Source of the DNA: an archaeon
Lineage (GTDB): Archaea; Nanobdellota; Nanobdellia; Woesearchaeales; GCA-2686295
Length of the DNA stretch: 64,000 nt
Assembly: GCA_043817405.1 (NCBI GenBank)
Contig: JBDRGV010000051.1
Location: forward strand, 1,960-65,959
Direction of reading: 5' to 3'
The notes below the pieces were generated by a model. It searched no databases. It saw only the letters and a program-made list of their open reading frames with translations, and was not told where the DNA came from. The position numbers and the translations under genes were made by a program. Below are positions 1 through 8,369 of the stretch, piece by piece (within the stretch, counting starts at the first letter, position 1; each line of letters begins with the position of its first letter).

Positions 1-494
1 AATTCTCAGACAATCCAGATTACAAAACAACTTTCCCACCTCATTGTTTACAGAACACAAAAGGTGCAGAGTTTGTTCCTGCAACAAAACCTGAAAAACC
101 ATACATTATCAGTTGGCAAGATGAAGATTTCGATGCTGATGAAATATTCAACAGACGAAACATCGTTCTGTACAAGGATGCTTTCGATGTGTTTGACGAA
201 GTCGATGGAACACCTTGGGCCTATGAAGTATTAAACATTATAGACCCTACAAGAGTTTTGGTTTATGGTGTCGCAACTAATTACTGTGTTGATTTTGCAG
301 TCAAAGGTTTGCTTGAACGAAAGAATGGCTTTGAAGTTGACGTAGTAACCAATGCAATGAAAGAGATTCCAGAATGTAATTTGGAAGATAAATTCAAAGA
401 ATGGGAGGATTTGGGTGCTAATCTGATGACACTATCTAAAGAAGGATTTCTTGAGTATAATAATCCTAAAAACCCATATCTCGGACTAATATGA
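1..494 (+). CDS. pncA: Nicotinamidase (isochorismatase family), 5'-truncated at window edge
   Basis: Frame open from nt 3 with no stop. Motifs PHCLQNTKGAEF and VLVYGVATNYCVDFAV are typical of PncA/isochorismatase. Sits next to NAD genes. Confidence 0.6.
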   Translation, partial: FSDNPDYKTTFPPHCLQNTKGAEFVPATKPEKPYIISWQDEDFDADEIFNRRNIVLYKDAFDVFDEVDGTPWAYEVLNIIDPTRVLVYGVATNYCVDFAVKGLLERKNGFEVDVVTNAMKEIPECNLEDKFKEWEDLGANLMTLSKEGFLEYNNPKNPYLGLI

Positions 495-514: not shown

Positions 515-1894
515 ATGAAAAAACCTAATAAAATAATCATTCCTGAAATAGATGTTGTTCAGGTTCAAAGAGAAATTGAAGATTTCATAATTGACACAAT
601 TATCAATGCAGGTTCCACAGGAGGCGTTATTGGACTTAGTGGAGGTGTTGATTCAACCACAACTGCTGCTCTTGCAAAGAGTGCTTTTGACAGGTATAAT
701 GAAAACAATGATAATAAATTAACACTAGAAGGTTATATTCTACCTTCAAAAATAAATAGTCCTGATGATGCAAAAGATGGTGTCGCAGTTGCAAGAACAT
801 TAGGAATTAATTATCAGGTTTTAAGCATTGATCAGCAAATTGAGAGCTATAAAATCACTAATCCTGAAAGTATTTCTAATAAATTTCACAAAGGAAACCT
901 CACTTCCAGAATCAGAGCAAATATTCTTCATTCAAAAGCTGCTTTTGGAAATAAGTTAGTTATTGGAACTGGAAATAAAGATGAGGATTTCAGTTTGGGA
1001 TACTACACTTTATTTGGTGATGGTGCTGTTCATTTAAGTCCTATTGGTAATCTTTCTAAACGTTTTGTCAGACAGATTGCAGAACATTATGGTTTTGAGA
1101 ATATTGCTAATCGTGAACCAACGGCAGGCTTAGAAGCAGGACAAACTGATTTCAAAGATTTGGGTTACAGTTATTTCTTTGTTGAAATGCTTTCTGAAGC
1201 TTTGAAACAAGGTTTCAAATATAAAAATATTGTAGCCAGTCCGCAATTAAATGATGTGTACAAGAATGATTCTAATAATTATACTAAACAATATGACAAG
1301 CAAAAGTTCAAAACCATAGAAGATGCAATAGAGGATATTTATCATAGGCATGAAAGTGCCATGTTTAAAGCAGATATTGTACATCCACCGATGGCGCCTG
1401 TAACCTTGATTTATGATGGTGAAAAAAGAAAAGATAAATCTGAAATTAAAAGAAAAGGTTACGAACCTCCGATTCCAACAACAGACATTATTATTGAATA
1501 CAAAAACGGTGTGAAAGAAGGTCTTGTTTTGATTGAAAGAAATAATCCACCCTATGGTCTGGCTATTCCAGGTGGCTTTGCTGAAAGAGGAATTACTTTA
1601 GAACAAAACGCCATAAAAGAAGCTTTGGAAGAGACTGGTTTGAGTATTGATATAGAAACTCCTGAAAGACCTTTATGTGTACATTCCAATCCTAGCAGGG
1701 ATCCTAGAAACCATATGATTAGCGCTACTTACATTGCCAGAGGTCATGGAACCATTAGGGCTGGCGATGATGCTGCAAAAGCAGCTCTTTATTCAATTCC
1801 TGAAGTTAAAGAATTACTGAAAAAAGATGCTTTTGTTTTTGATCACGGACGAATCATTGAGAAATATCTGAAACATAGAGGTTTATATGACTAA
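515..1894 (+). CDS. nadE: NH3-dependent NAD+ synthetase (PP-loop SGGVDS) fused to a C-terminal Nudix hydrolase domain
   Basis: N-terminus has GLSGGVDSTT, the PP-loop ATP pyrophosphatase motif. C-terminus has PGGFAERGITLEQNAIKEALEETGL, a Nudix box with a GI/K variant. An AGGAA-type ribosome-binding site lies upstream. Confidence 0.75.
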   Translation: MKKPNKIIIPEIDVVQVQREIEDFIIDTIINAGSTGGVIGLSGGVDSTTTAALAKSAFDRYNENNDNKLTLEGYILPSKINSPDDAKDGVAVARTLGINYQVLSIDQQIESYKITNPESISNKFHKGNLTSRIRANILHSKAAFGNKLVIGTGNKDEDFSLGYYTLFGDGAVHLSPIGNLSKRFVRQIAEHYGFENIANREPTAGLEAGQTDFKDLGYSYFFVEMLSEALKQGFKYKNIVASPQLNDVYKNDSNNYTKQYDKQKFKTIEDAIEDIYHRHESAMFKADIVHPPMAPVTLIYDGEKRKDKSEIKRKGYEPPIPTTDIIIEYKNGVKEGLVLIERNNPPYGLAIPGGFAERGITLEQNAIKEALEETGLSIDIETPERPLCVHSNPSRDPRNHMISATYIARGHGTIRAGDDAAKAALYSIPEVKELLKKDAFVFDHGRIIEKYLKHRGLYD

Positions 1895-2507
1895 GCAATT
1901 TAAGAGATTAGGATTCATTGGAAGGTTCAAACCTTTGCATTTAGGAGCTTCAGCAGTACTCGAAGGATTATGCAAAGAAGCAGACGAAGTAATAATTGGA
2001 ATTGGTAGTTCCAATAAATATAATCTTCGTAATCCGTTCACGGCAGAAGAAACTGAAGATATGATTGATGCATACCTTTCTCCCAATCATTCAAACTATT
2101 CAATCGTCAGAATTCCTGATTACGCACATATTCCTAAATTTAACAATGGTAATGTGTGGACAGAGCATGTACTCAAAGAATTCGGTTCTTTAGATGCTTT
2201 TGTAACTGGAAATGAGTATGTGAATAAATTGTTAGAACCTCATTATAAAATTATTCATTCAGCTGAATTTGTTCCTTTTGAAAAAAGAACCAGATTGAGA
2301 GCATCAGCCGTTAGAGTTGAAATGGCCAGAAATGGTCCTTGGCAATCAATGGTTCCTGAAGAAGTCAAAGAATACCTGCAGAATAATTCTTTGATTAAAA
2401 GATTCAAGAAAGAATTTGGATTGGAAACCATCAGCAAACTAGTAACTGATAATTACTTTATGGATGAAACTAAAGATAAAGAAAAAATTCATACAATGGA
2501 GGTATAA
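1887..2507 (+). CDS. nadM: Nicotinamide/nicotinate mononucleotide adenylyltransferase, archaeal type
   Basis: GFIGRFKPLHLGA resembles the GRFQPFHxGH nucleotidyltransferase motif (second His replaced by Ala). About 200 aa. Overlaps the nadE stop by 8 nt. Confidence 0.65.
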   Translation: MTKQFKRLGFIGRFKPLHLGASAVLEGLCKEADEVIIGIGSSNKYNLRNPFTAEETEDMIDAYLSPNHSNYSIVRIPDYAHIPKFNNGNVWTEHVLKEFGSLDAFVTGNEYVNKLLEPHYKIIHSAEFVPFEKRTRLRASAVRVEMARNGPWQSMVPEEVKEYLQNNSLIKRFKKEFGLETISKLVTDNYFMDETKDKEKIHTMEV

Positions 2508-2508
2508 A

Positions 2509-3282
2509 ATGGGACGAATCGGAAACTATGAAATCATAAAACAAATCTCCGAAGGCGGATTTGGCAGAATATACCAAGCAAAACATATCTTTCTTGATGA
2601 GTTGGCTTGCATTAAACAGAACAAGGAAGATACCGATATGGACATTCAAATTCTAAGACAAGAAGCTAAATTATTATGGAAACTCGATGAGTATCATTCA
2701 ATACCTTCTGCTAAAGATTTTTTCAAAGTGGCTAAGGGAAGTTACGCTTTAGTTATGAGTTATATCGATGGAAAAACATTGGATGAGACTATTCCTAAAA
2801 ACAAGAAGATGAATCCTGAAGATGTTTGTTGGATTACTGAAAGATTACTTGGTGCATTGCATTATTTACATTATAATGGAGTTATTCATGCAGATGTTAA
2901 ACCTCAAAACGTGATTATTGAACCTAAAAAACATGATATCAAATTGATTGATTTCGGTTTGTCATCCTACATGCCTAAGAGTATTACTAAACCTTTAGGT
3001 TATACTGAAGTTTATGCTGCTCCTGAATTAATTCTTTTGAAACCACCAATTCCTGAAACTGATTTATACGGTGCAGGCGTTGTCATGCTTACGGCTCTCG
3101 GAGGCGATATTTACACAAAGAGTTTGCCAAAAACTGTGCATAAAGACATTGCAGATTTTTGCAACAAACTCTTAAGATATGATCCTAAGGAAAGACCCAA
3201 CTGGGATAAAAATAATCCCTTATTGGAATTATCAGATATCAGACAACATGTGTTCGGAAGAAAGCATGTTTCTGAAGCCTAG
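2509..3282 (+). CDS. Hanks-type Ser/Thr protein kinase
   Basis: GGFGRIYQAK (Gly loop plus Lys), HADVKPQNVII (catalytic loop), DFGLS and APE are all present. I moved the start to the ATG 2 nt after the nadM stop. Confidence 0.7.
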   Translation: MGRIGNYEIIKQISEGGFGRIYQAKHIFLDELACIKQNKEDTDMDIQILRQEAKLLWKLDEYHSIPSAKDFFKVAKGSYALVMSYIDGKTLDETIPKNKKMNPEDVCWITERLLGALHYLHYNGVIHADVKPQNVIIEPKKHDIKLIDFGLSSYMPKSITKPLGYTEVYAAPELILLKPPIPETDLYGAGVVMLTALGGDIYTKSLPKTVHKDIADFCNKLLRYDPKERPNWDKNNPLLELSDIRQHVFGRKHVSEA

Positions 3283-3321: not shown

Positions 3322-4293
3322 ATGTATGGATGGGGTAGCGATACCAGCACATGGAAAAAACCAGGCAAGTACAAATATGACTCTGCCAAAAGTCCTTACT
3401 TGGATTCACTAGCCAGCAAATCGGCTGCAAAAGGACCACGAACATATAATATCGGAAGTGAACCAAATATGAAATTAGTCAATCCAAGAGGAAGGGATAT
3501 TTCCAGCGATAGTGAGAACCCTATAATTATAGGTGTTGATGTAACCGGTTCGATGTCTACATGGCCAGCTGAGATTTTTGATAGGTTGCCATTGTTTTAT
3601 CAGACATTGTCTCAGTACAAAGATGACTTAGACATAAGTTTTGGAGCAATAGGTGATGCCTATTGTGACACATATCCAATTCAGGTCAATAGCTTTGGCA
3701 AAGAAGTTAATTTAGAAGAACATTTGAAAGCATTGTATCCTGAAGGTGGCGGTGGCGGACAGAATAAAGAAACCTATGAGTTGTTTGCTTATTATATTTT
3801 AGAACATTGCAAGACTCCTAAGGCAAAATCTCCTTTCATGTTTATTTTTGGAGACGAAGATTTTTACAAAACTGTCAATCCTAAACAAGTAGAGCATTAC
3901 ATCGGTGATAAATTAGAGTCGCCAATGAAATCAAAAGATGTTTGGGATAAACTATTGCAAAGGTTTGATTTGTATTTGCTTCATAAACCATATGGTTCCG
4001 GTAGTGATGACAAGGAAGTAGTTGACAGTTGGGCTAATGCAATTGGCAGACAACGAATTGTAGAGTTGCCTAGCAAAGAAAGAGCAGTTGATATTGCAAT
4101 GGGAATTGTTGCTAAGAAATGGGGTAAGTTTTCTGACTTCAAAGATAATCTTAGCGCAAGACATGATAGTGATGGAGTTAAGGACTCTGTTTACAAATCA
4201 ATTGCATTTGTTGATGTTGACAGCTCACCAAACTCTGTTGTAAAAACAACTAAGAAAGGTACAAAGACTAAACCATTGAGCGAAATGCCTTGA
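3322..4293 (+). CDS. von Willebrand factor A (vWA, TerY-like) domain protein
   Basis: MIDAS motif DVTGSM (DxSxS), with later GGGGQNKET and FIFGDED segments. A GGAGG site lies upstream. Confidence 0.65.
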   Translation: MYGWGSDTSTWKKPGKYKYDSAKSPYLDSLASKSAAKGPRTYNIGSEPNMKLVNPRGRDISSDSENPIIIGVDVTGSMSTWPAEIFDRLPLFYQTLSQYKDDLDISFGAIGDAYCDTYPIQVNSFGKEVNLEEHLKALYPEGGGGGQNKETYELFAYYILEHCKTPKAKSPFMFIFGDEDFYKTVNPKQVEHYIGDKLESPMKSKDVWDKLLQRFDLYLLHKPYGSGSDDKEVVDSWANAIGRQRIVELPSKERAVDIAMGIVAKKWGKFSDFKDNLSARHDSDGVKDSVYKSIAFVDVDSSPNSVVKTTKKGTKTKPLSEMP

Positions 4294-4425
4294 TGATTTA
4301 AAAAAATAATTTTTGTGTGGTGAACATATGCAAAGAGAAAACTTGGAAGAAAAATTAAACGAAACACATCTTTGCAGGTTCACCAATATTTTTTATGATT
4401 ATAATATACAAACAGGTGAATTAAC

Positions 4426-5343
4426 ATGAAAAATGCTAAAGCTATTGTAACCATACCACCTTACGCTCCTTTTGTCAAAGAAGTTGTAAATCATCCTATT
4501 GTTTCAGGTCTTAGATTAAATACTGTTATGCCTGTTAATGAAAGTCTTGAAGATGTTTTAGGAAGATTGTATAAAGAAACTGAAAGTGCTGGTAAAGATT
4601 TATGGATTGATTTAAAATGCAGACAGTTGAGAGTTAAAAATTTTGGTGTACCTCCATTTACAGAAATTGAGTTGACTCATAATTTAGAAGTTAATACTCC
4701 TGTAACTGCTTATTTTTCTGATGGTGAAGAAAGCGCCACTGTTTTGAGAGTTGACGGTAATAAATTAATCATGCAGGAAGGTCCTAGAAGAGTTGTTGGT
4801 CCTGGCGAATCTGTTAATATCCCTGATAGATCTTTGAAGATTGATGGTTATTTAACAGAGGTTGATAAAAATTATATTAACGCTGCTAAAAGCATTGGTT
4901 TACATAATTATATGATTTCATATGTTGAAGGCAAGGAGGATGCTGGCAAAATTTTGAAGTTGGATTTTAAAGCCAACATAATTGAGAAAATCGAATCTTT
5001 GAAGGGTCTTAATTATGTTATGAAACATTGGGTTGGTAAAACTGGCCTAATGACTGCTCGCGGTGATTTATATGTTGAAATGAAATTACCCCATCAAGTA
5101 ATTGAAGCAGAAGAAATGATTATTGGCAAGGATGAGAACGCTGTTGTCGCTTCCAGAATATTCAGTTCATTAAGTCAAAGTTTGGAACCAACTTGCGCAG
5201 ACATTGGCGATGTTGATAATCTTTTAAGAATGGGCTATCGAACTTTCATGTTTGGAGATGATATTTGCATGCAGAGAGATTCAATAATGAGTGGCCTAAA
5301 TTTATTCAAAGCAATGGCTAAAAAGTACGAGGTTGGAAAATGA
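4426..5343 (+). CDS. Truncated pyruvate-kinase-like (PK barrel only) protein
   Basis: Collinear with the pyruvate kinase A domain. AIVTIPP matches IVCTIGP; SGLRLNTVMP matches AGMNVARLNFSHG; KIESLKG matches SKIEN (Lys and Glu kept); MTARGDLYVEM matches MVARGDLGIEI. No C-terminal domain; 305 aa. Confidence 0.5.
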   Translation: MKNAKAIVTIPPYAPFVKEVVNHPIVSGLRLNTVMPVNESLEDVLGRLYKETESAGKDLWIDLKCRQLRVKNFGVPPFTEIELTHNLEVNTPVTAYFSDGEESATVLRVDGNKLIMQEGPRRVVGPGESVNIPDRSLKIDGYLTEVDKNYINAAKSIGLHNYMISYVEGKEDAGKILKLDFKANIIEKIESLKGLNYVMKHWVGKTGLMTARGDLYVEMKLPHQVIEAEEMIIGKDENAVVASRIFSSLSQSLEPTCADIGDVDNLLRMGYRTFMFGDDICMQRDSIMSGLNLFKAMAKKYEVGK

Positions 5344-6425
5344 ATGAAGAACAGTTTATTGGAACTATTATCGGTTGTGCCATTGGTGATACTCTGGGCA
5401 TGCCTGTTGAAGGCTGGAAGAAAGAACAGATTGCAAGATATGCTGGAAGGATTACAGAACCTCGTGATCCAGTTATTGTAAAAGATAAAAATGGTAAAAT
5501 TGTTTATGGTGATGAGTTCGGTTATCTGAAATATCATACAAAATACATGAAAAAAGGTGAATGGACAGATGATACTATTTTGACATTGGCAATTGCTGAA
5601 GCGATCGCTGAGAATGGTTTGGATTTGGAAGCAATTGCAGAGTACCAATTGAAAGAATACAAGTCCAGAATACAAAAAGATGGTTCTGTTAGAGGCGGTT
5701 TTGGAAGAACCACTATCGGTGGTTTTGAAAACATGGAACGAGTTCGCAAGGGTGCAAAAACAGGTGTTGTTGGAGGACCTGGTAATGCTCCTGCGATGAA
5801 AGCAGGGCCTTTGGGTTTAGCTGCCGAATCTGAAGAACATATGATTGACCGTTATGATGATCGAAGGACTTTTTTGACAAGTGATTATGTTAAATTCGTC
5901 GAAGATGTTGCTAAAATGACTCATCTTGATCCGCGTTCAGTAAGGTCAGGAGTCATTCAGGCAAATGCTATAAACAATCTTTTGGACGGGGCTAACAAAG
6001 GTACTTTCATGACAAATATGTATCTGATTACCATGAGAGAAGAAAAAGTTCCTAAACATTACAGTTATTCATCCGGACCTTCTTTGTTTGATAAAATAGG
6101 TTGGGTCATGACACATGCACATGTTTCTCCTAATGTTGCTCACAAAAAATTAGGAAGTTCTAGTTTAGTCACTTCATCGTATCCTTTCGCTGTTTTCATG
6201 TTTCAGAAGTACTGGGATAATCCAATTGAAGGTTTGATTGAAACTGTGAATTATGGTGGCGATTGTGATACAACTGGTGCGATTTACGGTGCGCTTGCAG
6301 GTGCTAAGAACGGCATGATTTTTCCTAAGGAATGGGTTGATGTTTTGTATGAAAAAGAAAGATTGATTAACGCAGGAAAAAACCTATGGAGGCAGAGAAA
6401 TGAAAAAAGCATTGCTAATCTATAA
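5340..6425 (+). CDS. ADP-ribosylglycohydrolase (DraG/ARH family)
   Basis: N-terminal GCAIGDTLGMPVEG and C-terminal GGDCDTTGAIYGALAGAKNG are ARH signature motifs. Confidence 0.8.
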   Translation: MNEEQFIGTIIGCAIGDTLGMPVEGWKKEQIARYAGRITEPRDPVIVKDKNGKIVYGDEFGYLKYHTKYMKKGEWTDDTILTLAIAEAIAENGLDLEAIAEYQLKEYKSRIQKDGSVRGGFGRTTIGGFENMERVRKGAKTGVVGGPGNAPAMKAGPLGLAAESEEHMIDRYDDRRTFLTSDYVKFVEDVAKMTHLDPRSVRSGVIQANAINNLLDGANKGTFMTNMYLITMREEKVPKHYSYSSGPSLFDKIGWVMTHAHVSPNVAHKKLGSSSLVTSSYPFAVFMFQKYWDNPIEGLIETVNYGGDCDTTGAIYGALAGAKNGMIFPKEWVDVLYEKERLINAGKNLWRQRNEKSIANL

Positions 6426-7248
6426 GAAAAGCAAGTATGATATCCAAAGAAATTCTCCTGACAAATACATAAGAGACTATGCTGAGTCTGATGATGAAAC
6501 TGCTGTTGCGAGCAGAGAACAGCATAAAATCCATAAGGATTCTTTGGAAAGAGTCATTTCTGATTTAGATAAATCTGATTTTGATTATCAGACAATTTAT
6601 AGAGCTGATTTTGACAAATCAAAAGTTGATGATCATAATCTAGTGATTGCTTTTGGTGGCGATGGAACTTTTTTCAATGTGGCTCATTATATTTATGACA
6701 GACCTCTTCTAGGTGTTAATCCAGGCACTAGCGTTGGTTTTTATTGTCATGCAAACAGTGATGATTTCCATGAAGTAATAAATAGTATTGATGAGCAACC
6801 GATTACAAAAGTTCACAGATTAGAATTAGAGTTGAATGGAAAAATCATTCCTGAGCAGGTTTTGAATGATATTTTGATTGCAGATAATAATCCTGCAGCT
6901 TACACCTATTATTCTGTTGAAGACCATGGAGATGTGAATATCAAGAGGAGCAATGGTTTGTTGGTTGCAACTGCTGCTGGCTCTACTGCGTGGATTCGAA
7001 ATTTGAGAGGTGCAGTATTGCCTTTAGAATCTCCTTTAATTCAATATCATCACAGAGATGTTAATAGTCCTTTCTTCATAACTGATGGATTAAAAGTTAA
7101 ATCTTATTCTAGACAGGCAGATATATATGTTGATGGTGATCATTTGATGTATCCTTTTAATTTGGAAAGTGAACTAGTTATTAGAAATGGTAAACCTTTG
7201 CATATAATTGGCGAATTTACTGAGAAGAGAAGAAAGTATTTTGATTAG
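6400..7248 (+). CDS. nadK: NAD+ kinase
   Basis: GGDGT motif (LVIAFGGDGTFF). NDILIAD...NGLLVATAAGSTAW matches the NadK NE/D and GSTAYS regions. Confidence 0.8.
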   Translation: MKKALLIYKKSKYDIQRNSPDKYIRDYAESDDETAVASREQHKIHKDSLERVISDLDKSDFDYQTIYRADFDKSKVDDHNLVIAFGGDGTFFNVAHYIYDRPLLGVNPGTSVGFYCHANSDDFHEVINSIDEQPITKVHRLELELNGKIIPEQVLNDILIADNNPAAYTYYSVEDHGDVNIKRSNGLLVATAAGSTAWIRNLRGAVLPLESPLIQYHHRDVNSPFFITDGLKVKSYSRQADIYVDGDHLMYPFNLESELVIRNGKPLHIIGEFTEKRRKYFD

Positions 7249-8369
7249 TATCGTCTGATTATTTCTTTGTATGCATTAGCTATTTTATTCATTTTGCTTC
7301 TTGGGTATATTGTGTTGGCTAATGTTTTTCCTGTTAATGGTTTGTCTGATCCAACTCCTGCAAAATGATATCTTATTTCTCCAAGTCTTGAATGAGAGCA
7401 ATTATTATCGAGCATCGCCATCTGCATCCATTCCATATCTAAGAAGTCTCCGCCTGCATCTAAGTCTTTTTCTAAGTTTTTCTTCATTTGTCTTAAAACT
7501 GATACTGTGTTTACTGTTTTTCCTTCTAATGCATCTTCACCAATTTCATTTTGAAAAATAGTCCATGCACTTGTATCATCAATAAGTTGATTGTAGATTG
7601 GAATATCTTGTACTTCTCCAGATAATATTTTCTTTTCGTCTAGAGCTGCAAATGGCACGTATATTCTGCCCACTTGATATCCTTTGTCAATTATTCCAAT
7701 TTTTCCGTAGTGAAATATGTTTATGTCAATTCCTGGAAATTCAGAGTTTGATATTAGAAATAATTGTTGTAATAAATTCTTTGCTTGGTCTGCGAATACA
7801 TAGTCAAAGTTCATTACCGGTTTTTCATCGATTTTAAATACACGATGATTTATAAAATCACTTTTACAATCCGCATCCATTTCTAAACCATCTATTGATA
7901 ATGCCTGTAAAGGTCCAAATATAACGTTTAATTGATTAGTATCTTTTATTGCTTTTTCGTCAACATAATGAAACATTAAATCCACATTGTCATAAGCTAA
8001 ATCTACGAATCTTCTGTTTGCTTTTGATCTTTGCTGTTCATAATCTTTTATTGTTAAGGGAATTTCTCTGTTTAGCAGATATTGTAAACCTTTATGTAAA
8101 TCTTCATCTCTTAATAGTCTAATGTCTCCTCTTGAGTTTATGATATGAAGTTTATTATTAAAGTAGAAATGTGGTTCTGTTGATTTTTTTGGTTGGTAGA
8201 AGTATTTTTCATATAAAAATGTTAATTCATTTCTTAAAAAACCGTTGTGAATAACTATTTCACCAATATTTTTGAGTTGTTCTTTTCGTGTTTCCATATC
8301 AGGATGGGCTATTCTATCGTAAATATAATTTCCTAATTGTCTTTTATCCATTAAATCTGTTAGTTCCAT
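7245..8369 (-). CDS. Hypothetical protein (374 aa), convergent with nadK
   Basis: Long ORF in good coding context. I recognise no family signature. Confidence 0.5.
   Translation of the reverse strand: MELTDLMDKRQLGNYIYDRIAHPDMETRKEQLKNIGEIVIHNGFLRNELTFLYEKYFYQPKKSTEPHFYFNNKLHIINSRGDIRLLRDEDLHKGLQYLLNREIPLTIKDYEQQRSKANRRFVDLAYDNVDLMFHYVDEKAIKDTNQLNVIFGPLQALSIDGLEMDADCKSDFINHRVFKIDEKPVMNFDYVFADQAKNLLQQLFLISNSEFPGIDINIFHYGKIGIIDKGYQVGRIYVPFAALDEKKILSGEVQDIPIYNQLIDDTSAWTIFQNEIGEDALEGKTVNTVSVLRQMKKNLEKDLDAGGDFLDMEWMQMAMLDNNCSHSRLGEIRYHFAGVGSDKPLTGKTLANTIYPRSKMNKIANAYKEIIRRY

What the first reader, a model, noticed from the sequence alone, without database searches (positions are those of the whole stretch)
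4426..5343. 305-aa mini pyruvate kinase-like protein
It aligns along the whole PK A-domain barrel with the catalytic Lys/Glu (KIES) and the ARGDL loop retained. It lacks the C-terminal allosteric domain and most of the B lid. A stand-alone PK barrel inside an NAD cluster is not a standard arrangement. It may be a phosphotransferase with a different substrate.
Basis: partly seen in the sequence, partly recalled or inferred. Interest (0 to 1): 0.55.

Follow-up and report, generated by a model that had tools for sequence, protein, structure and literature searches.

The report
Mini pyruvate-kinase paired with vWA protein
This 305-residue protein is a real but stripped-down pyruvate-kinase-type enzyme from a large uncharacterised family that always sits next to a dedicated vWA partner protein, inside NAD-vitamin recycling operons of tiny symbiotic archaea and some bacteria, and beside a protein kinase in giant phages, so it is probably not the ordinary glycolytic enzyme that databases call it.

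Summary
ORF 4426-5343(+) encodes a 305-aa protein with the pyruvate kinase (PK) A-barrel plus a shortened B lid and no C domain (Pfam PF00224 52.6 bits; AF2 pLDDT 94.9; top 50 PDB fold hits all PKs). All PEP/Mg2+/phosphoryl-transfer residues are conserved family-wide. It is not a one-off truncation: about 210 clusters at 50% identity, nearly all ~300 aa, score 300-360 bits on their own profile against 60-77 for E. coli PykA/PykF. It fails NCBI's PK equivalog model (66.8 vs 306.4 bits).

A ~320-aa "hypothetical" protein with a vWA fold and MIDAS motif lies directly upstream in 67/67 loci. In DPANN archaea the pair sits in a PncB-PncA-NadE-NUDIX-NMNAT-Ser/Thr kinase-vWA-miniPK-NadK-NrtR operon. 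In Chloroflexota and Acidobacteriota it lies between an NMNAT-like gene and NadE. In huge phages it follows a DnaJ-kinase.

Best reading (about 0.45): an unregulated, K+-independent-type PEP-dependent phosphotransferase, most simply a true PK, docked by its vWA partner and feeding ATP to NAD salvage. An altered acceptor remains a serious rival (about 0.3). I found no description of this pairing in the literature. Verdict: new variant of a known kind, moderately high interest.

The parts
4426..5343 (+). Mini-PK: PK A-barrel plus a shortened B lid, no C domain, 305 aa
   Evidence: ORF. PF00224 52.6 bits. AF2 pLDDT 94.9. Foldseek top 50 hits all PKs. Family profile 363 bits against PykF 77.
4513..4521 (+). 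R30-L31-N32, equivalent to PykF R32/N34 (PEP phosphate ligand; monovalent-cation ligand)
   Evidence: Alignment with PykF. R30 99% and N32 98% conserved in 84 diverse members. Coordinates verified.
4609..4632 (+). D62-L-K-C-R66-Q67-L-R69, the end of strand beta3. D62 is the cation-site Asp, Q67 is position 117 of rabbit PK, and R69 is the nucleotide-phosphate Arg (role assigned from memory). R66 is a family-specific invariant.
   Evidence: Position-117 logic from PMC4374775.
4615..4848 (+). Shortened B (lid) domain, aa 64-141, with a ~26-residue deletion relative to PykF. It contains G125-P-G-E128-S-V-N131, where PykF has K156 at the E128 position.
   Evidence: strands 80-83, 93-97, 102-110, 113-116, 129-131; position 128 is Q in 56 and E in 18 of 84 members.
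4987..4998 (+). K188-I-E190-S, the catalytic Lys and a Mg2+ ligand Glu (PykF K220/E222)
   Evidence: (K 99%, E 100%).
5056..5070 (+). A211-R-G-D214-L, containing the Mg2+ ligand Asp (PykF D246)
   Evidence: (D214 99%; position 213 is D in 58 and G in 21 of 84).
5149..5157 (+). A242-S243-R244. S243 replaces the PK Thr (PykF T278, PEP carboxylate/proton-donor position). R244 replaces Gln.
   Evidence: (S 96%; R in 66 of 84).
3322..4293 (+). Invariant partner: a 323-aa vWA-fold protein with MIDAS motif D73-V-T75-G-S77 (nt 3538-3552). It is labelled 'hypothetical' in all records, has no Pfam domain, and matches phrog_2971.
   Evidence: AF2 pLDDT 91.2. Foldseek hits integrin beta-I, vWF-A and NorD vWA domains. 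Upstream of the mini-PK in 67/67 loci.
2464..3282 (+). Hanks-type Ser/Thr protein kinase. The real start is probably 2509, right after the NMNAT stop.
   Evidence: Pkinase 135.5 bits. Gene call in L099. Present in 40/42 archaeal and 4/4 viral loci, fused to DnaJ in phages.
1887..2507 (+). Archaeal-type NMNAT-like nucleotidyltransferase whose signature reads H-L-G-A instead of H-x-G-H (nt 1920-1949)
   Evidence: (NF002243 99 bits against a cutoff of 127). Upstream of the mini-PK in 41/41 archaeal and 15/15 bacterial loci.
515..1894 (+). NAD synthetase (NadE) fused to a NUDIX hydrolase
   Evidence: PF02540 171.5 bits and PF00293 43.3 bits.
1..494 (+). 3' part of a nicotinamidase (PncA, isochorismatase family), cut by the window start
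   Evidence: PF00857. tblastn with L002 PncA covers nt 12-440.
5340..6425 (+). ADP-ribosylglycohydrolase. Its start overlaps the mini-PK stop (ATGA), which suggests translational coupling.
   Evidence: PF03747 172 bits. Junction sequence. This slot is variable in relatives (ARH, IU-nucleoside hydrolase, radical SAM).
6400..7248 (+). Divergent NAD kinase, the last gene of the operon
   Evidence: PF01513 30.8 bits. NCBIfam NAD kinase models match at about 56 bits, below cutoffs. Recurrent downstream of the mini-PK in 40/60 archaeal loci.
7245..8369 (-). Convergent 374-aa protein with no detectable homology. It recurs next to the operon in many relatives. Membership in the system is uncertain.
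   Evidence: No Pfam, PHROG, PDB or PADLOC hit. tblastn hits at 23-44% identity in many archaeal loci.

Best explanation
The gene encodes the catalytic core (A barrel plus short B lid) of a pyruvate-kinase-type enzyme that has lost the allosteric C domain. It instead works with a dedicated vWA-domain partner encoded immediately upstream.

Shown. The fold is PK. Every residue that binds PEP, Mg2+ and the transferred phosphoryl group in PK is conserved across about 200 sequence clusters. The family is separate from canonical PKs. The vWA gene accompanies it in every locus examined. In archaea and bacteria the pair is embedded among the ATP-consuming last steps of NAD synthesis and salvage (NMNAT-like, NadE, PncB, NadK), often with the ADP-ribose-sensing regulator NrtR. 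In huge phages the pair follows a DnaJ-Ser/Thr kinase.

Inferred. The enzyme takes the phosphoryl group from PEP and passes it to a nucleoside diphosphate, most simply ADP, so it would be a true pyruvate kinase. Its cation-site pattern (Leu113/Gln117/Val120-type, Ser76 lost, invariant Arg66) suggests that it is K+-independent. Lacking the C domain, it would not need sugar-phosphate activation. It could therefore turn the PEP pool into ATP when NAD+ is low and upstream glycolysis (GAPDH) is stalled, which would power NAD resynthesis. The vWA MIDAS site is proposed to dock or regulate the enzyme, or to tether it to a client. The Hanks kinase would add phosphorylation control.
For: Fold and residues. 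PF00224 scores 52.6 bits. The AF2 model has pLDDT 94.9. Foldseek returns only PKs in its top 50. R30, N32, D62, K188, E190, D214 and S243 are at least 96% conserved in 84 diverse members, and R69 (the nucleotide-phosphate Arg) is 96% conserved.

Cation site. The pattern matches K+-independent PKs described in PMC4374775.

Precedent. PMC10176505 states that some PK isozymes lack the C domain and cites the Entamoeba 'smallest PK'.

Context. The NAD operon is conserved in 5/5 long contigs and across about 90 loci. vWA is upstream in 67/67 loci. NMNAT-like is upstream in 56/56 archaeal and bacterial loci. The bacterial gene downstream is a glutamine-dependent NadE. A natural fusion joins the mini-PK to a QueC/NadE-type PP-loop ATP pyrophosphatase.

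PEP supply. Enolase is present in 122/123 and PEP synthase in 111/123 complete Woesearchaeales genomes, whereas canonical K00873 PK is present in only 39/123 (preprint 10.64898/2026.05.13.725050).

Partner theme. The same vWA family pairs with adenylosuccinate synthetase homologues in three phage lineages, which also points to adenylate supply.
Against: No activity data exist. The protein scores far below NCBI's PK equivalog cutoff (66.8 vs 306.4 bits). The B-domain Lys that I recall contacting the nucleotide phosphates in rabbit PK (K206; PykF K156) is Gln or Glu in the family. Family-specific invariants (R66, D278, mostly R244) hint at a remodelled acceptor pocket. A plain PK would not obviously need an obligatory vWA partner. 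The phage copies have no NAD genes within +/-8 kb, so the NAD link is not universal. The NAD-salvage enzymes release AMP and PPi, and PK cannot recycle those without adenylate kinase. I could not test whether genomes carrying the mini-PK also carry a canonical PK.
Confidence: 0.45

Rival explanations
1. It uses PK chemistry on a different acceptor. The mini-PK/vWA pair would be a new two-component enzyme that uses PEP (or ATP) to phosphorylate an NAD-pathway metabolite such as NAD/NaAD, nicotinamide or nicotinate riboside, ADP-ribose or ribose, or a residue on the vWA protein itself acting as a phospho-carrier. This would fill or bypass a step of NAD(P) salvage.
For: The PEP/Mg2+ half of the site is intact while the nucleotide half is changed. 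The K156(PykF) equivalent is Q or E, H37 is variable, and new invariant R66, D278 and frequent R244 appear. The protein fails the PK equivalog cutoff. It forms a separate family. It is strictly coupled to NMNAT-like and NadE genes in archaea and bacteria. A fusion to a PP-loop domain exists. The obligatory partner suggests a composite active site or a carrier.
Against: R69, the Arg that binds the nucleotide beta-phosphate in PK, is conserved. PK nucleotide binding is known to be permissive (my own knowledge). NAD kinase, NMNAT, NadE, PncA and PncB already cover the known steps in the same operons. The phage triads lack NAD genes nearby. vWA domains are normally protein-binding adaptors rather than catalytic subunits (PMC9503650).
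Confidence: 0.3
2. It is simply the housekeeping glycolytic pyruvate kinase of a reduced genome, and its place in the NAD cluster is incidental.
For: Public records name it pyruvate kinase. The catalytic residues are intact. Most Woesearchaeales have enolase but no canonical K00873 PK. C-domain-less PKs exist.
Against: The NAD-operon position and the vWA partner are conserved in 67/67 loci across two domains of life and in phages, which is far beyond chance. Close homologues (52-54% identity) occur in large-genome Chloroflexota and Acidobacteriota, including an 8.8-Mb chromosome; these lineages normally possess a canonical PK, but that is inferred and was not tested here. Phages carry it with a kinase and without glycolysis genes.
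Confidence: 0.1
3. It is a signalling or conflict module. The kinase, vWA protein and PK-like protein would act as a sensor/switch analogous to the TerY-P triad, or as a phage counter-defence or host-takeover cassette. The PK-like protein would sense PEP or energy state rather than carry metabolic flux.
For: A vWA + Ser/Thr kinase pair recalls the TerY-P triads, which PMC11090510 describes as phosphorylation-dependent switches and stand-alone defence cassettes. The module is mobile between archaea, bacteria and huge phages. The phage kinase carries a DnaJ domain. The slot downstream of the mini-PK is variable. ADP-ribosylglycohydrolase and NrtR lie nearby.
Against: The module has no PP2C phosphatase and no effector nuclease or toxin. 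The vWA protein and mini-PK match no PADLOC model. Full conservation of catalytic residues over about 200 clusters indicates turnover rather than binding alone. Sequence conservation is high (60-70% among Woesearchaeota), unlike fast-evolving conflict genes. Bacterial loci mostly lack the kinase (1/16).
Confidence: 0.12

Closest known systems
Canonical pyruvate kinase (EC 2.7.1.40; Pfam PF00224 + PF02887; e.g. E. coli PykF/PykA, PKM)
   Same: It shares the (beta/alpha)8 A barrel with an inserted beta-barrel B lid. It shares the PEP/Mg2+/phosphoryl-transfer residues (PykF R32, N34, D66, K220, E222, D246; T278 is Ser here). It shares the Arg that binds the nucleotide beta-phosphate.
   Different: There is no C domain, so no known allosteric site and no C-C tetramer interface. 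The B lid is shorter by about 26 residues. The B-domain Lys is Q or E. The family has its own invariants (R66, Q67, D278). Identity to PKs is about 20%, with 60-77 bits on the family profile against 300-360 for members. It is below the TIGR01064 cutoff. It has an obligatory vWA partner and sits in an NAD operon.
C-domain-less 'smallest' pyruvate kinase of Entamoeba histolytica (Kumari et al. 2020, cited in PMC10176505)
   Same: It is a PK that lacks the C domain, which supports the idea that an A+B core could function as a PK.
   Different: I could not obtain its sequence or text, so relatedness is untested. It is a eukaryotic glycolytic enzyme with no reported vWA partner or NAD-operon context (from the title and citation only). 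The present family is about 300 aa.
TerY-P triad (TerY-like vWA + PP2C phosphatase + Ser/Thr kinase)
   Same: A vWA protein with a MIDAS motif is encoded next to a Hanks-type Ser/Thr kinase, and the module is mobile between genomes.
   Different: A PK-like enzyme takes the third place instead of a PP2C phosphatase. The kinase has no zinc-ribbon or OB fusion. The vWA protein matches no Pfam or PADLOC model. The context is NAD metabolism rather than tellurite resistance or restriction.
NrtR-controlled NAD salvage regulons (PncA-PncB-NadM/NadD-NadE, NUDIX); Rodionov et al. 2008, PMC2330246
   Same: The same salvage genes and an NrtR-type NUDIX-wHTH regulator are clustered with the mini-PK in 41/60 archaeal loci.
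   Different: The NAD literature I searched or read reports neither a PK-like nor a vWA gene as a regulon member. I did not read PMC2330246 itself. NrtR operator sites were not searched here. No NrtR gene lies within this window.
Phage NAD+ reconstitution pathways NARP1 (Adps+Namat), NARP2 (Nampt+Nmnat), NARP3 (PnuC+NadR-like)
   Same: They are auxiliary metabolic modules carried by phages that bear on NAD+ and energy supply during infection.
   Different: None of the defining NARP genes is next to the phage mini-PK. The NARP3 paper contains no occurrence of 'pyruvate' or 'vWA', and none of the NARP papers listed contains 'pyruvate kinase'; 'vWA' was not searched in the NARP1/2 papers.
Phage vWA-like + adenylosuccinate-synthetase (PurA-like) gene pairs (cluster-C mycobacteriophages, Rhizobium jumbo phages, Vibrio phage Va1)
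   Same: The same vWA family (phrog_2971) lies directly upstream of, or one gene from, a phosphoryl-transfer enzyme of nucleotide metabolism. In mycobacteriophages it follows a DnaJ-like kinase.
   Different: The enzyme partner is PurA-like instead of PK-like. These pairs are annotated only as hypothetical proteins, and no function has been reported.

Membership tests
Pyruvate kinase (PF00224 / TIGR01064, EC 2.7.1.40) | (beta/alpha)8 A-domain barrel with a B domain inserted after strand beta3 | tested here: met
   The AF2 model has pLDDT 94.9, with eight barrel strands and a five-strand insert at aa 64-141. Foldseek top 50 hits are all PKs, TMq 0.75-0.81.
Pyruvate kinase (PF00224 / TIGR01064, EC 2.7.1.40) | Pfam PK barrel-domain score at or above the gathering cutoff | tested here: met
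   52.6 bits against 30, covering only aa 91-274.
Pyruvate kinase (PF00224 / TIGR01064, EC 2.7.1.40) | NCBIfam equivalog model TIGR01064 (or any PK subfamily model) at or above its curated cutoff | tested here: not met
   66.8 bits against 306.4. All seven PK models are far below their cutoffs.
Pyruvate kinase (PF00224 / TIGR01064, EC 2.7.1.40) | PEP, Mg2+ and phosphoryl-transfer residues (PykF R32, K220, E222, D246, T278) | tested here: met
   R30, K188, E190 and D214 are 99-100% conserved. T278 is replaced conservatively by S243 (96%).
Pyruvate kinase (PF00224 / TIGR01064, EC 2.7.1.40) | Monovalent-cation site (rabbit N74, S76, D112, T113 carbonyl; E117 or K117) | tested here: inconclusive
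   N32 and D62 are kept. The S76 equivalent is G/A/I/V, position 113 is Leu and position 117 is Gln. This pattern is seen in K+-independent archaeal PKs.
Pyruvate kinase (PF00224 / TIGR01064, EC 2.7.1.40) | Nucleotide-phosphate contacts (rabbit R119 and B-domain K206; roles recalled from memory, not retrieved from a paper) | tested here: inconclusive
   The R119 equivalent R69 is 96% conserved. The K206 equivalent (PykF K156) is Q in 56 and E in 18 of 84 members.
Pyruvate kinase (PF00224 / TIGR01064, EC 2.7.1.40) | C-terminal alpha/beta allosteric domain (PF02887) | tested here: not met
   The protein ends at the last barrel helix, aa 284-303. This feature is not universal in the family according to PMC10176505.
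Pyruvate kinase (PF00224 / TIGR01064, EC 2.7.1.40) | Catalysis of PEP + ADP -> pyruvate + ATP | not testable with these tools
   This needs an enzyme assay or genetic complementation.
vWA domain proteins (the partner, window 3322-4293) | Rossmann-like vWA fold with a MIDAS D-x-S/T-x-S motif | tested here: met
   AF2 pLDDT 91.2. Foldseek hits integrin beta-I, vWF-A3 and NorD vWA domains with prob 1.0 and E about 3e-6. D73, T75, G76 and S77 are invariant in 45 homologues. No Pfam vWA model hits by sequence.
TerY-P triad | vWA + PP2C phosphatase + Ser/Thr kinase encoded together | tested here: not met
   vWA and kinase are present, but no PP2C was found among the neighbours scanned in the window, phage or bacterial loci. 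The vWA protein matches no PADLOC model.
NrtR-regulated NAD salvage operon | Clustering with PncA/PncB/NadM/NadE and an NrtR (NUDIX-wHTH) regulator | tested here: met
   Seen in relatives, with NrtR in 41/60 archaeal loci. In this window the salvage genes are present but no NrtR gene: tblastn hits only the NUDIX half of NadE-NUDIX, and the operon's 5' end lies outside the window.
NrtR-regulated NAD salvage operon | NrtR operator sites upstream of the operon | not tested
   The operon start lies upstream of the window, and no motif search was run on related loci.
Phage NAD+ reconstitution pathways (NARP1-3) | Adps+Namat, Nampt+Nmnat, or PnuC+NadR-like gene pairs | tested here: not met
   None was found within +/-8-12 kb of the viral mini-PK copies.

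The most novel reading that the evidence does not exclude
The mini-PK and its vWA partner form a previously unrecognised two-subunit enzyme that makes PEP, rather than ATP, the driving currency for a step of NAD(P) salvage. It would do this either by phosphorylating an NAD-pathway intermediate or by phospho-relay through the partner. Energy-poor DPANN symbionts, some Chloroflexota and Acidobacteriota, and huge phages would use this mobile module to rebuild nucleotide cofactors when ATP and NAD+ are scarce.
Probability: 0.25. Interest if true: 0.8.

Novelty: new variant of a known kind. Interest (0 to 1): 0.62.

Why it matters
1. Annotation. Hundreds of DPANN and bacterial MAG records call this protein "pyruvate kinase". 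Metabolic reconstructions count PK when judging whether these tiny archaea can make ATP. If the family is a specialised NAD-operon enzyme rather than the glycolytic PK, or if it is the real missing PK that strict KO thresholds fail to detect, those energy budgets change.

2. NAD biology. The vWA-miniPK pair is a conserved, uncharacterised component of NAD salvage operons in two domains of life. That points to an unknown energetic or regulatory link between the PEP pool and NAD homeostasis.

3. Phage biology. Huge phages carry the same pair with a DnaJ-kinase. Other large phages pair the same vWA family with a PurA-like enzyme. Together these hint at a family of nucleotide-supply modules that may bear on NAD+- or ATP-depleting defences.

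4. Enzymology. At about 300 residues this would be the smallest PK-type catalytic core. It offers a natural experiment on what the C domain and a full B lid contribute.

Tried and rejected
- Phage origin of the window. The first tblastn hit was a 485-kb phage, but the exact protein and more than 100 close homologues are from Woesearchaeota/Nanoarchaeota MAGs. The window is archaeal.
- Non-PK TIM-barrel family (HpcH aldolase, PEP-utilizer, PEP mutase and similar). Pfam returned only PF00224 and Foldseek returned only PKs. Rejected.
- The partner as a PRTase or other enzyme. The D-V-T-G-S motif and the fold are vWA/MIDAS. Rejected.
- The Aravind-lab ARG-centred anti-ADP-ribosylation system (PMC9503650). 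It involves ARG, phosphatases and chaperones with no PK-like gene. It is a different system.
- NARP3. This is PnuC + NadR-like and is unrelated.
- Known defence system. PADLOC hits only the generic kinase domain.
- Catalogued viral structures (BFVD). There is no PK-like match.
- Rosetta-stone search among longer family members. It gave one informative fusion, to a QueC-type PP-loop domain. The other long members have no extra Pfam domain.
- Other recurrent unknown genes (the ~296-aa insert, the ~300-314-aa downstream genes, the 374-aa convergent gene). They gave no informative hit, apart from weak NadK-like similarity of the downstream genes.
- Literature searches for 'pyruvate kinase-like' + NAD + vWA, NadM/NrtR/DPANN, truncated PK, and Bxz1 kinase/PurA found no description of the pair.
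- The Entamoeba paper is not held.
- I found no held paper that lists PK's ADP contacts, so the role of rabbit K206 rests on my own recollection.
Full report
1. THE OBSERVATION

An ATG-to-stop ORF occupies 4426-5343 (+) and encodes 305 aa. Pfam reports one family, the pyruvate kinase barrel domain PF00224, at 52.6 bits (gathering cutoff 30) over aa 91-274. A sequence search of the PDB returns pyruvate kinases almost exclusively, led by E. coli PykF (E 3e-11, aa 93-277 aligned to 121-312).

KIES is at aa 188-191 (nt 4987-4998) and ARGDL is at aa 211-215 (nt 5056-5070). An AlphaFold2 model built on 51 homologues is confident (pLDDT 94.9, pTM 0.91). It shows eight barrel strands with a five-strand insertion after strand 3. 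Foldseek against the PDB gives only pyruvate kinases in its top 50 (E about 5e-22, query-normalised TM 0.75-0.81, 18-20% identity).

The protein stops at the last barrel helix, so the C-terminal allosteric domain is absent. Two details need correction:
- The B lid is shortened by one ~26-residue deletion. About 78 residues remain (aa 64-141), so it is not mostly lost.
- The N-terminal third resembles PK by fold and by the short R-L-N and D-x-K motifs. It does not give a significant sequence score on its own.

2. A LARGE AND DISTINCT FAMILY

The identical protein is in public records as 'MAG: pyruvate kinase [archaeon]'. More than 100 homologues at 60-70% identity, all 296-330 aa, come from Woesearchaeota/Nanoarchaeota MAGs.

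An exhaustive HMMER search of 1.84 billion representatives finds 210 clusters (at 50% identity) with E<=1e-10. The best 150 are almost all ~300 aa and match end to end. A scan of one genome per species finds 302 loci. These include Chloroflexota/Anaerolineae, Acidobacteriota (an 8.8-Mb chromosome), Planctomycetota and Clostridia at 52-54% identity. Four viral contigs of 55-485 kb also carry it.

A profile built from 84 diverse members scores archaeal, bacterial and phage copies at 300-360 bits. It scores E. coli PykF and PykA at only 77 and 60 bits. NCBI's PK equivalog model TIGR01064 gives 66.8 bits against a cutoff of 306.4. The family is therefore a separate branch of the PK superfamily, and the database name is not backed by an equivalog-level match.

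3. ACTIVE-SITE ANATOMY

In the 84-member alignment the following positions are at least 90% conserved: R30, N32, D62, K64, R66, Q67, L68, R69, G127, S165, E168, D172, K188, I189, E190, G194, A211, D214, L215, A239, S243, D259, G270 and D278.

Mapped onto PykF, the conserved set includes:
- the PEP-phosphate Arg (R32),
- the catalytic Lys (K220),
- both Mg2+ carboxylates (E222, D246),
- the PEP-carboxylate/proton-donor position (T278, here Ser),
- two cation ligands (N34, D66),
- the Arg that binds the nucleotide beta-phosphate (R73).

The Ser76, Thr113 and Glu117 equivalents of rabbit PK are G/A/V, Leu and Gln. PMC4374775 shows that K+-independent PKs, including characterised crenarchaeal enzymes, have exactly this kind of pattern. 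These changes therefore do not argue against PK activity. They suggest K+ independence, possibly with invariant R66 supplying the positive charge; that last point is inference.

The real departures from canonical PK are three:
- The B-domain Lys (PykF K156, rabbit K206) is Q or E. Its role in contacting the nucleotide phosphates is from my own recollection.
- Gln is replaced by R244 in 66 of 84 members.
- An invariant D278 sits where PK has Gly, in the M-L-S-G-E segment.

In the window the gene order is as follows:
- PncA fragment (1-494)
- NadE-NUDIX fusion (515-1894)
- NMNAT-like (1887-2507)
- Hanks Ser/Thr kinase (2464-3282)
- a 323-aa protein with no Pfam domain (3322-4293)
- mini-PK (4426-5343)
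- ADP-ribosylglycohydrolase (5340-6425; its start overlaps the mini-PK stop)
- NAD kinase (6400-7248)

Five long contigs from distant relatives show the same operon, often with PncB and the regulator NrtR.

I ran tblastn with the window's proteins against all fetched loci, after removing duplicates:

| Neighbour of the mini-PK | Archaea | Bacteria | Viral |
|---|---|---|---|
| 323-aa protein, upstream on the same strand within 2.4 kb | 46/46 | 17/17 | 4/4 |
| NMNAT-like, upstream | 41/41 | 15/15 | 0/4 |
| Ser/Thr kinase | 40/42 | 1/16 | 4/4 |

In bacteria the gene downstream of the mini-PK is a glutamine-dependent NAD synthetase. In two lineages it is an Amidohydro_2 protein instead. One family member is a natural fusion of the mini-PK to a QueC-type PP-loop ATP pyrophosphatase, which is the superfamily of NadE.

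In the viral contigs the triad is DnaJ-kinase, then the partner, then the mini-PK. It lies beside DNA polymerase III alpha and RNA ligase genes, with no NAD-synthesis genes within 8 kb. The 485-kb phage has an ADP-ribosylglycohydrolase 4 kb downstream.

5. THE PARTNER

The 323-aa protein is 'hypothetical' in every record and has no Pfam hit. Its AF2 model (pLDDT 91.2) matches integrin beta-I, vWF-A and NorD vWA domains (prob 1.0). The MIDAS-type motif D73-x-T75-G-S77 is invariant. It matches phrog_2971, a PHROG of unknown function.

Without a mini-PK, the same family occurs in about 200 cluster-C mycobacteriophages, ten Rhizobium jumbo phages and six Vibrio phage records. In each representative inspected it lies directly upstream of, or one gene away from, an adenylosuccinate-synthetase homologue. 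In the mycobacteriophages it is preceded by a DnaJ-like kinase. This vWA family is therefore a dedicated companion of two different phosphoryl-transfer enzymes of nucleotide metabolism.

6. MECHANISM

The following is shown:
- The protein has a PK fold with a complete PEP/Mg2+/phosphoryl-transfer apparatus.
- It has no allosteric domain.
- It has an obligatory vWA neighbour.
- It is embedded among ATP-consuming NAD salvage enzymes in cellular genomes.

The best inference (confidence about 0.45) is that the protein is a constitutive, K+-independent-type PEP-dependent phosphotransferase, most simply a true pyruvate kinase. The vWA partner would dock or regulate it, and a Hanks kinase would modulate it where present.

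A rationale that fits the operon is as follows. When NAD+ falls, GAPDH-dependent glycolysis and FBP-type activation of ordinary PK fail, but PEP persists. An unregulated PK co-expressed with PncA/PncB/NMNAT/NadE could convert that PEP into the ATP needed to rebuild NAD+. This rationale is my inference and is not supported by any direct test.

Two further points support the reading:
- Woesearchaeales almost always have enolase and PEP synthase, but only 39/123 have a canonical K00873 PK.
- Some PK isozymes are reported to lack the C domain, with the Entamoeba 'smallest PK' cited as the example (ref 33 of PMC10176505).

The evidence against is listed under the best explanation. In short: the changed B-domain Lys, the family-specific invariants, the unexplained need for a partner, and phage copies without NAD genes.

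The main rival (about 0.3) keeps the chemistry but changes the acceptor to an NAD-pathway metabolite or to the partner itself. The 'ordinary glycolytic PK' reading (about 0.1) is disfavoured by the invariant synteny across domains and by the family's presence in large-genome bacteria and phages. A 'signalling/conflict triad' reading (about 0.12) is suggested by the resemblance to TerY-P. It lacks a phosphatase, an effector and any PADLOC match.

7. COMPARISON WITH WHAT IS KNOWN, AND NOVELTY

The protein works like a PK and belongs to the PK superfamily. It fails the equivalog test and lacks the C domain, so I do not file it as an orthologue of pyruvate kinase.

Targeted full-text searches and reading of the most relevant papers found no description of a PK-like + vWA pair in NAD operons or phages. 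The papers were the viral NAD/ADPr survey, the NARP1-3 work, the DPANN metabolism papers, the TerY-P description and the PK family reviews. The library is incomplete, so an earlier description in a subscription journal cannot be excluded.

I rate the finding as a new variant of a known kind, with interest 0.62. It is testable with simple assays. It bears on the energy budgets inferred for DPANN archaea. It also exposes an uncharacterised, mobile, conserved component of NAD metabolism.

Noticed in passing
window 1887-2507 (motif at 1920-1949): The NMNAT-like nucleotidyltransferase of the operon reads GRFKPLH-L-G-A, so the second His of the canonical H-x-G-H signature is missing. DPANN copies mostly have H-x-G-[G/A/S] and bacterial copies H-x-G-[H/Q]. 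NCBIfam NMNAT models hit below their cutoffs (99 vs 127 bits). It may be a divergent NadM subfamily.
   Followed up: partly
L095 (Mycobacterium phage LinStu gp257-260), L096 (Rhizobium phage RHph_TM2_3B EVB95_018-019), L097 (Vibrio phage Va1_038-039): The same vWA family (phrog_2971) is paired with an adenylosuccinate-synthetase homologue in three unrelated phage lineages. In the mycobacteriophages it is preceded by a DnaJ-like protein kinase. All copies are annotated as hypothetical. This looks like a sister module to vWA + mini-PK.
   Followed up: partly
P0144 (568 aa): This protein is a natural fusion of a mini-PK (aa 6-319) with a QueC-type PP-loop ATP pyrophosphatase domain (aa 337-560). 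The source organism is unknown.
   Followed up: partly
window 515-1894: NAD synthetase and a NUDIX hydrolase are fused into one 459-aa protein here. In most related loci they are two adjacent genes.
   Followed up: no
window 7245-8369 (-): A convergent 374-aa ORF has no Pfam, PHROG, PDB or PADLOC match, yet it recurs (23-44% identity) next to the operon in many related archaeal loci.
   Followed up: partly
L008 9075-9965 and equivalents in 25 of 60 archaeal loci: An extra ~296-aa gene with no detectable homology is inserted between the vWA gene and the mini-PK in about 40% of archaeal loci. It is absent from this window.
   Followed up: partly
L078 10931-11821, L081 10934-11899: In Blastocatellia and Clostridia MAGs the gene after the mini-PK is an Amidohydro_2 (PF04909) protein instead of NadE.
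   Followed up: no
L013, L014, L021, L027, L030 and others: Many MAGs titled 'uncultured Methanosarcinales archaeon' carry loci 60-68% identical to the Woesearchaeota operon. One is the same 585-kb contig that one search returned for P0021. The organism labels of these bins look unreliable.
   Followed up: no
window 4294-4425: A 132-bp AT-rich spacer separates the vWA gene from the mini-PK, whereas most other junctions in the operon overlap or abut. It could hold an internal promoter or a regulatory element.
   Followed up: no
L094 9287-11197 and 11944-14244: In one viral contig the DNA polymerase III alpha gene next to the triad is split and carries an intein-splicing-domain match at the end of the first piece.
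   Followed up: no
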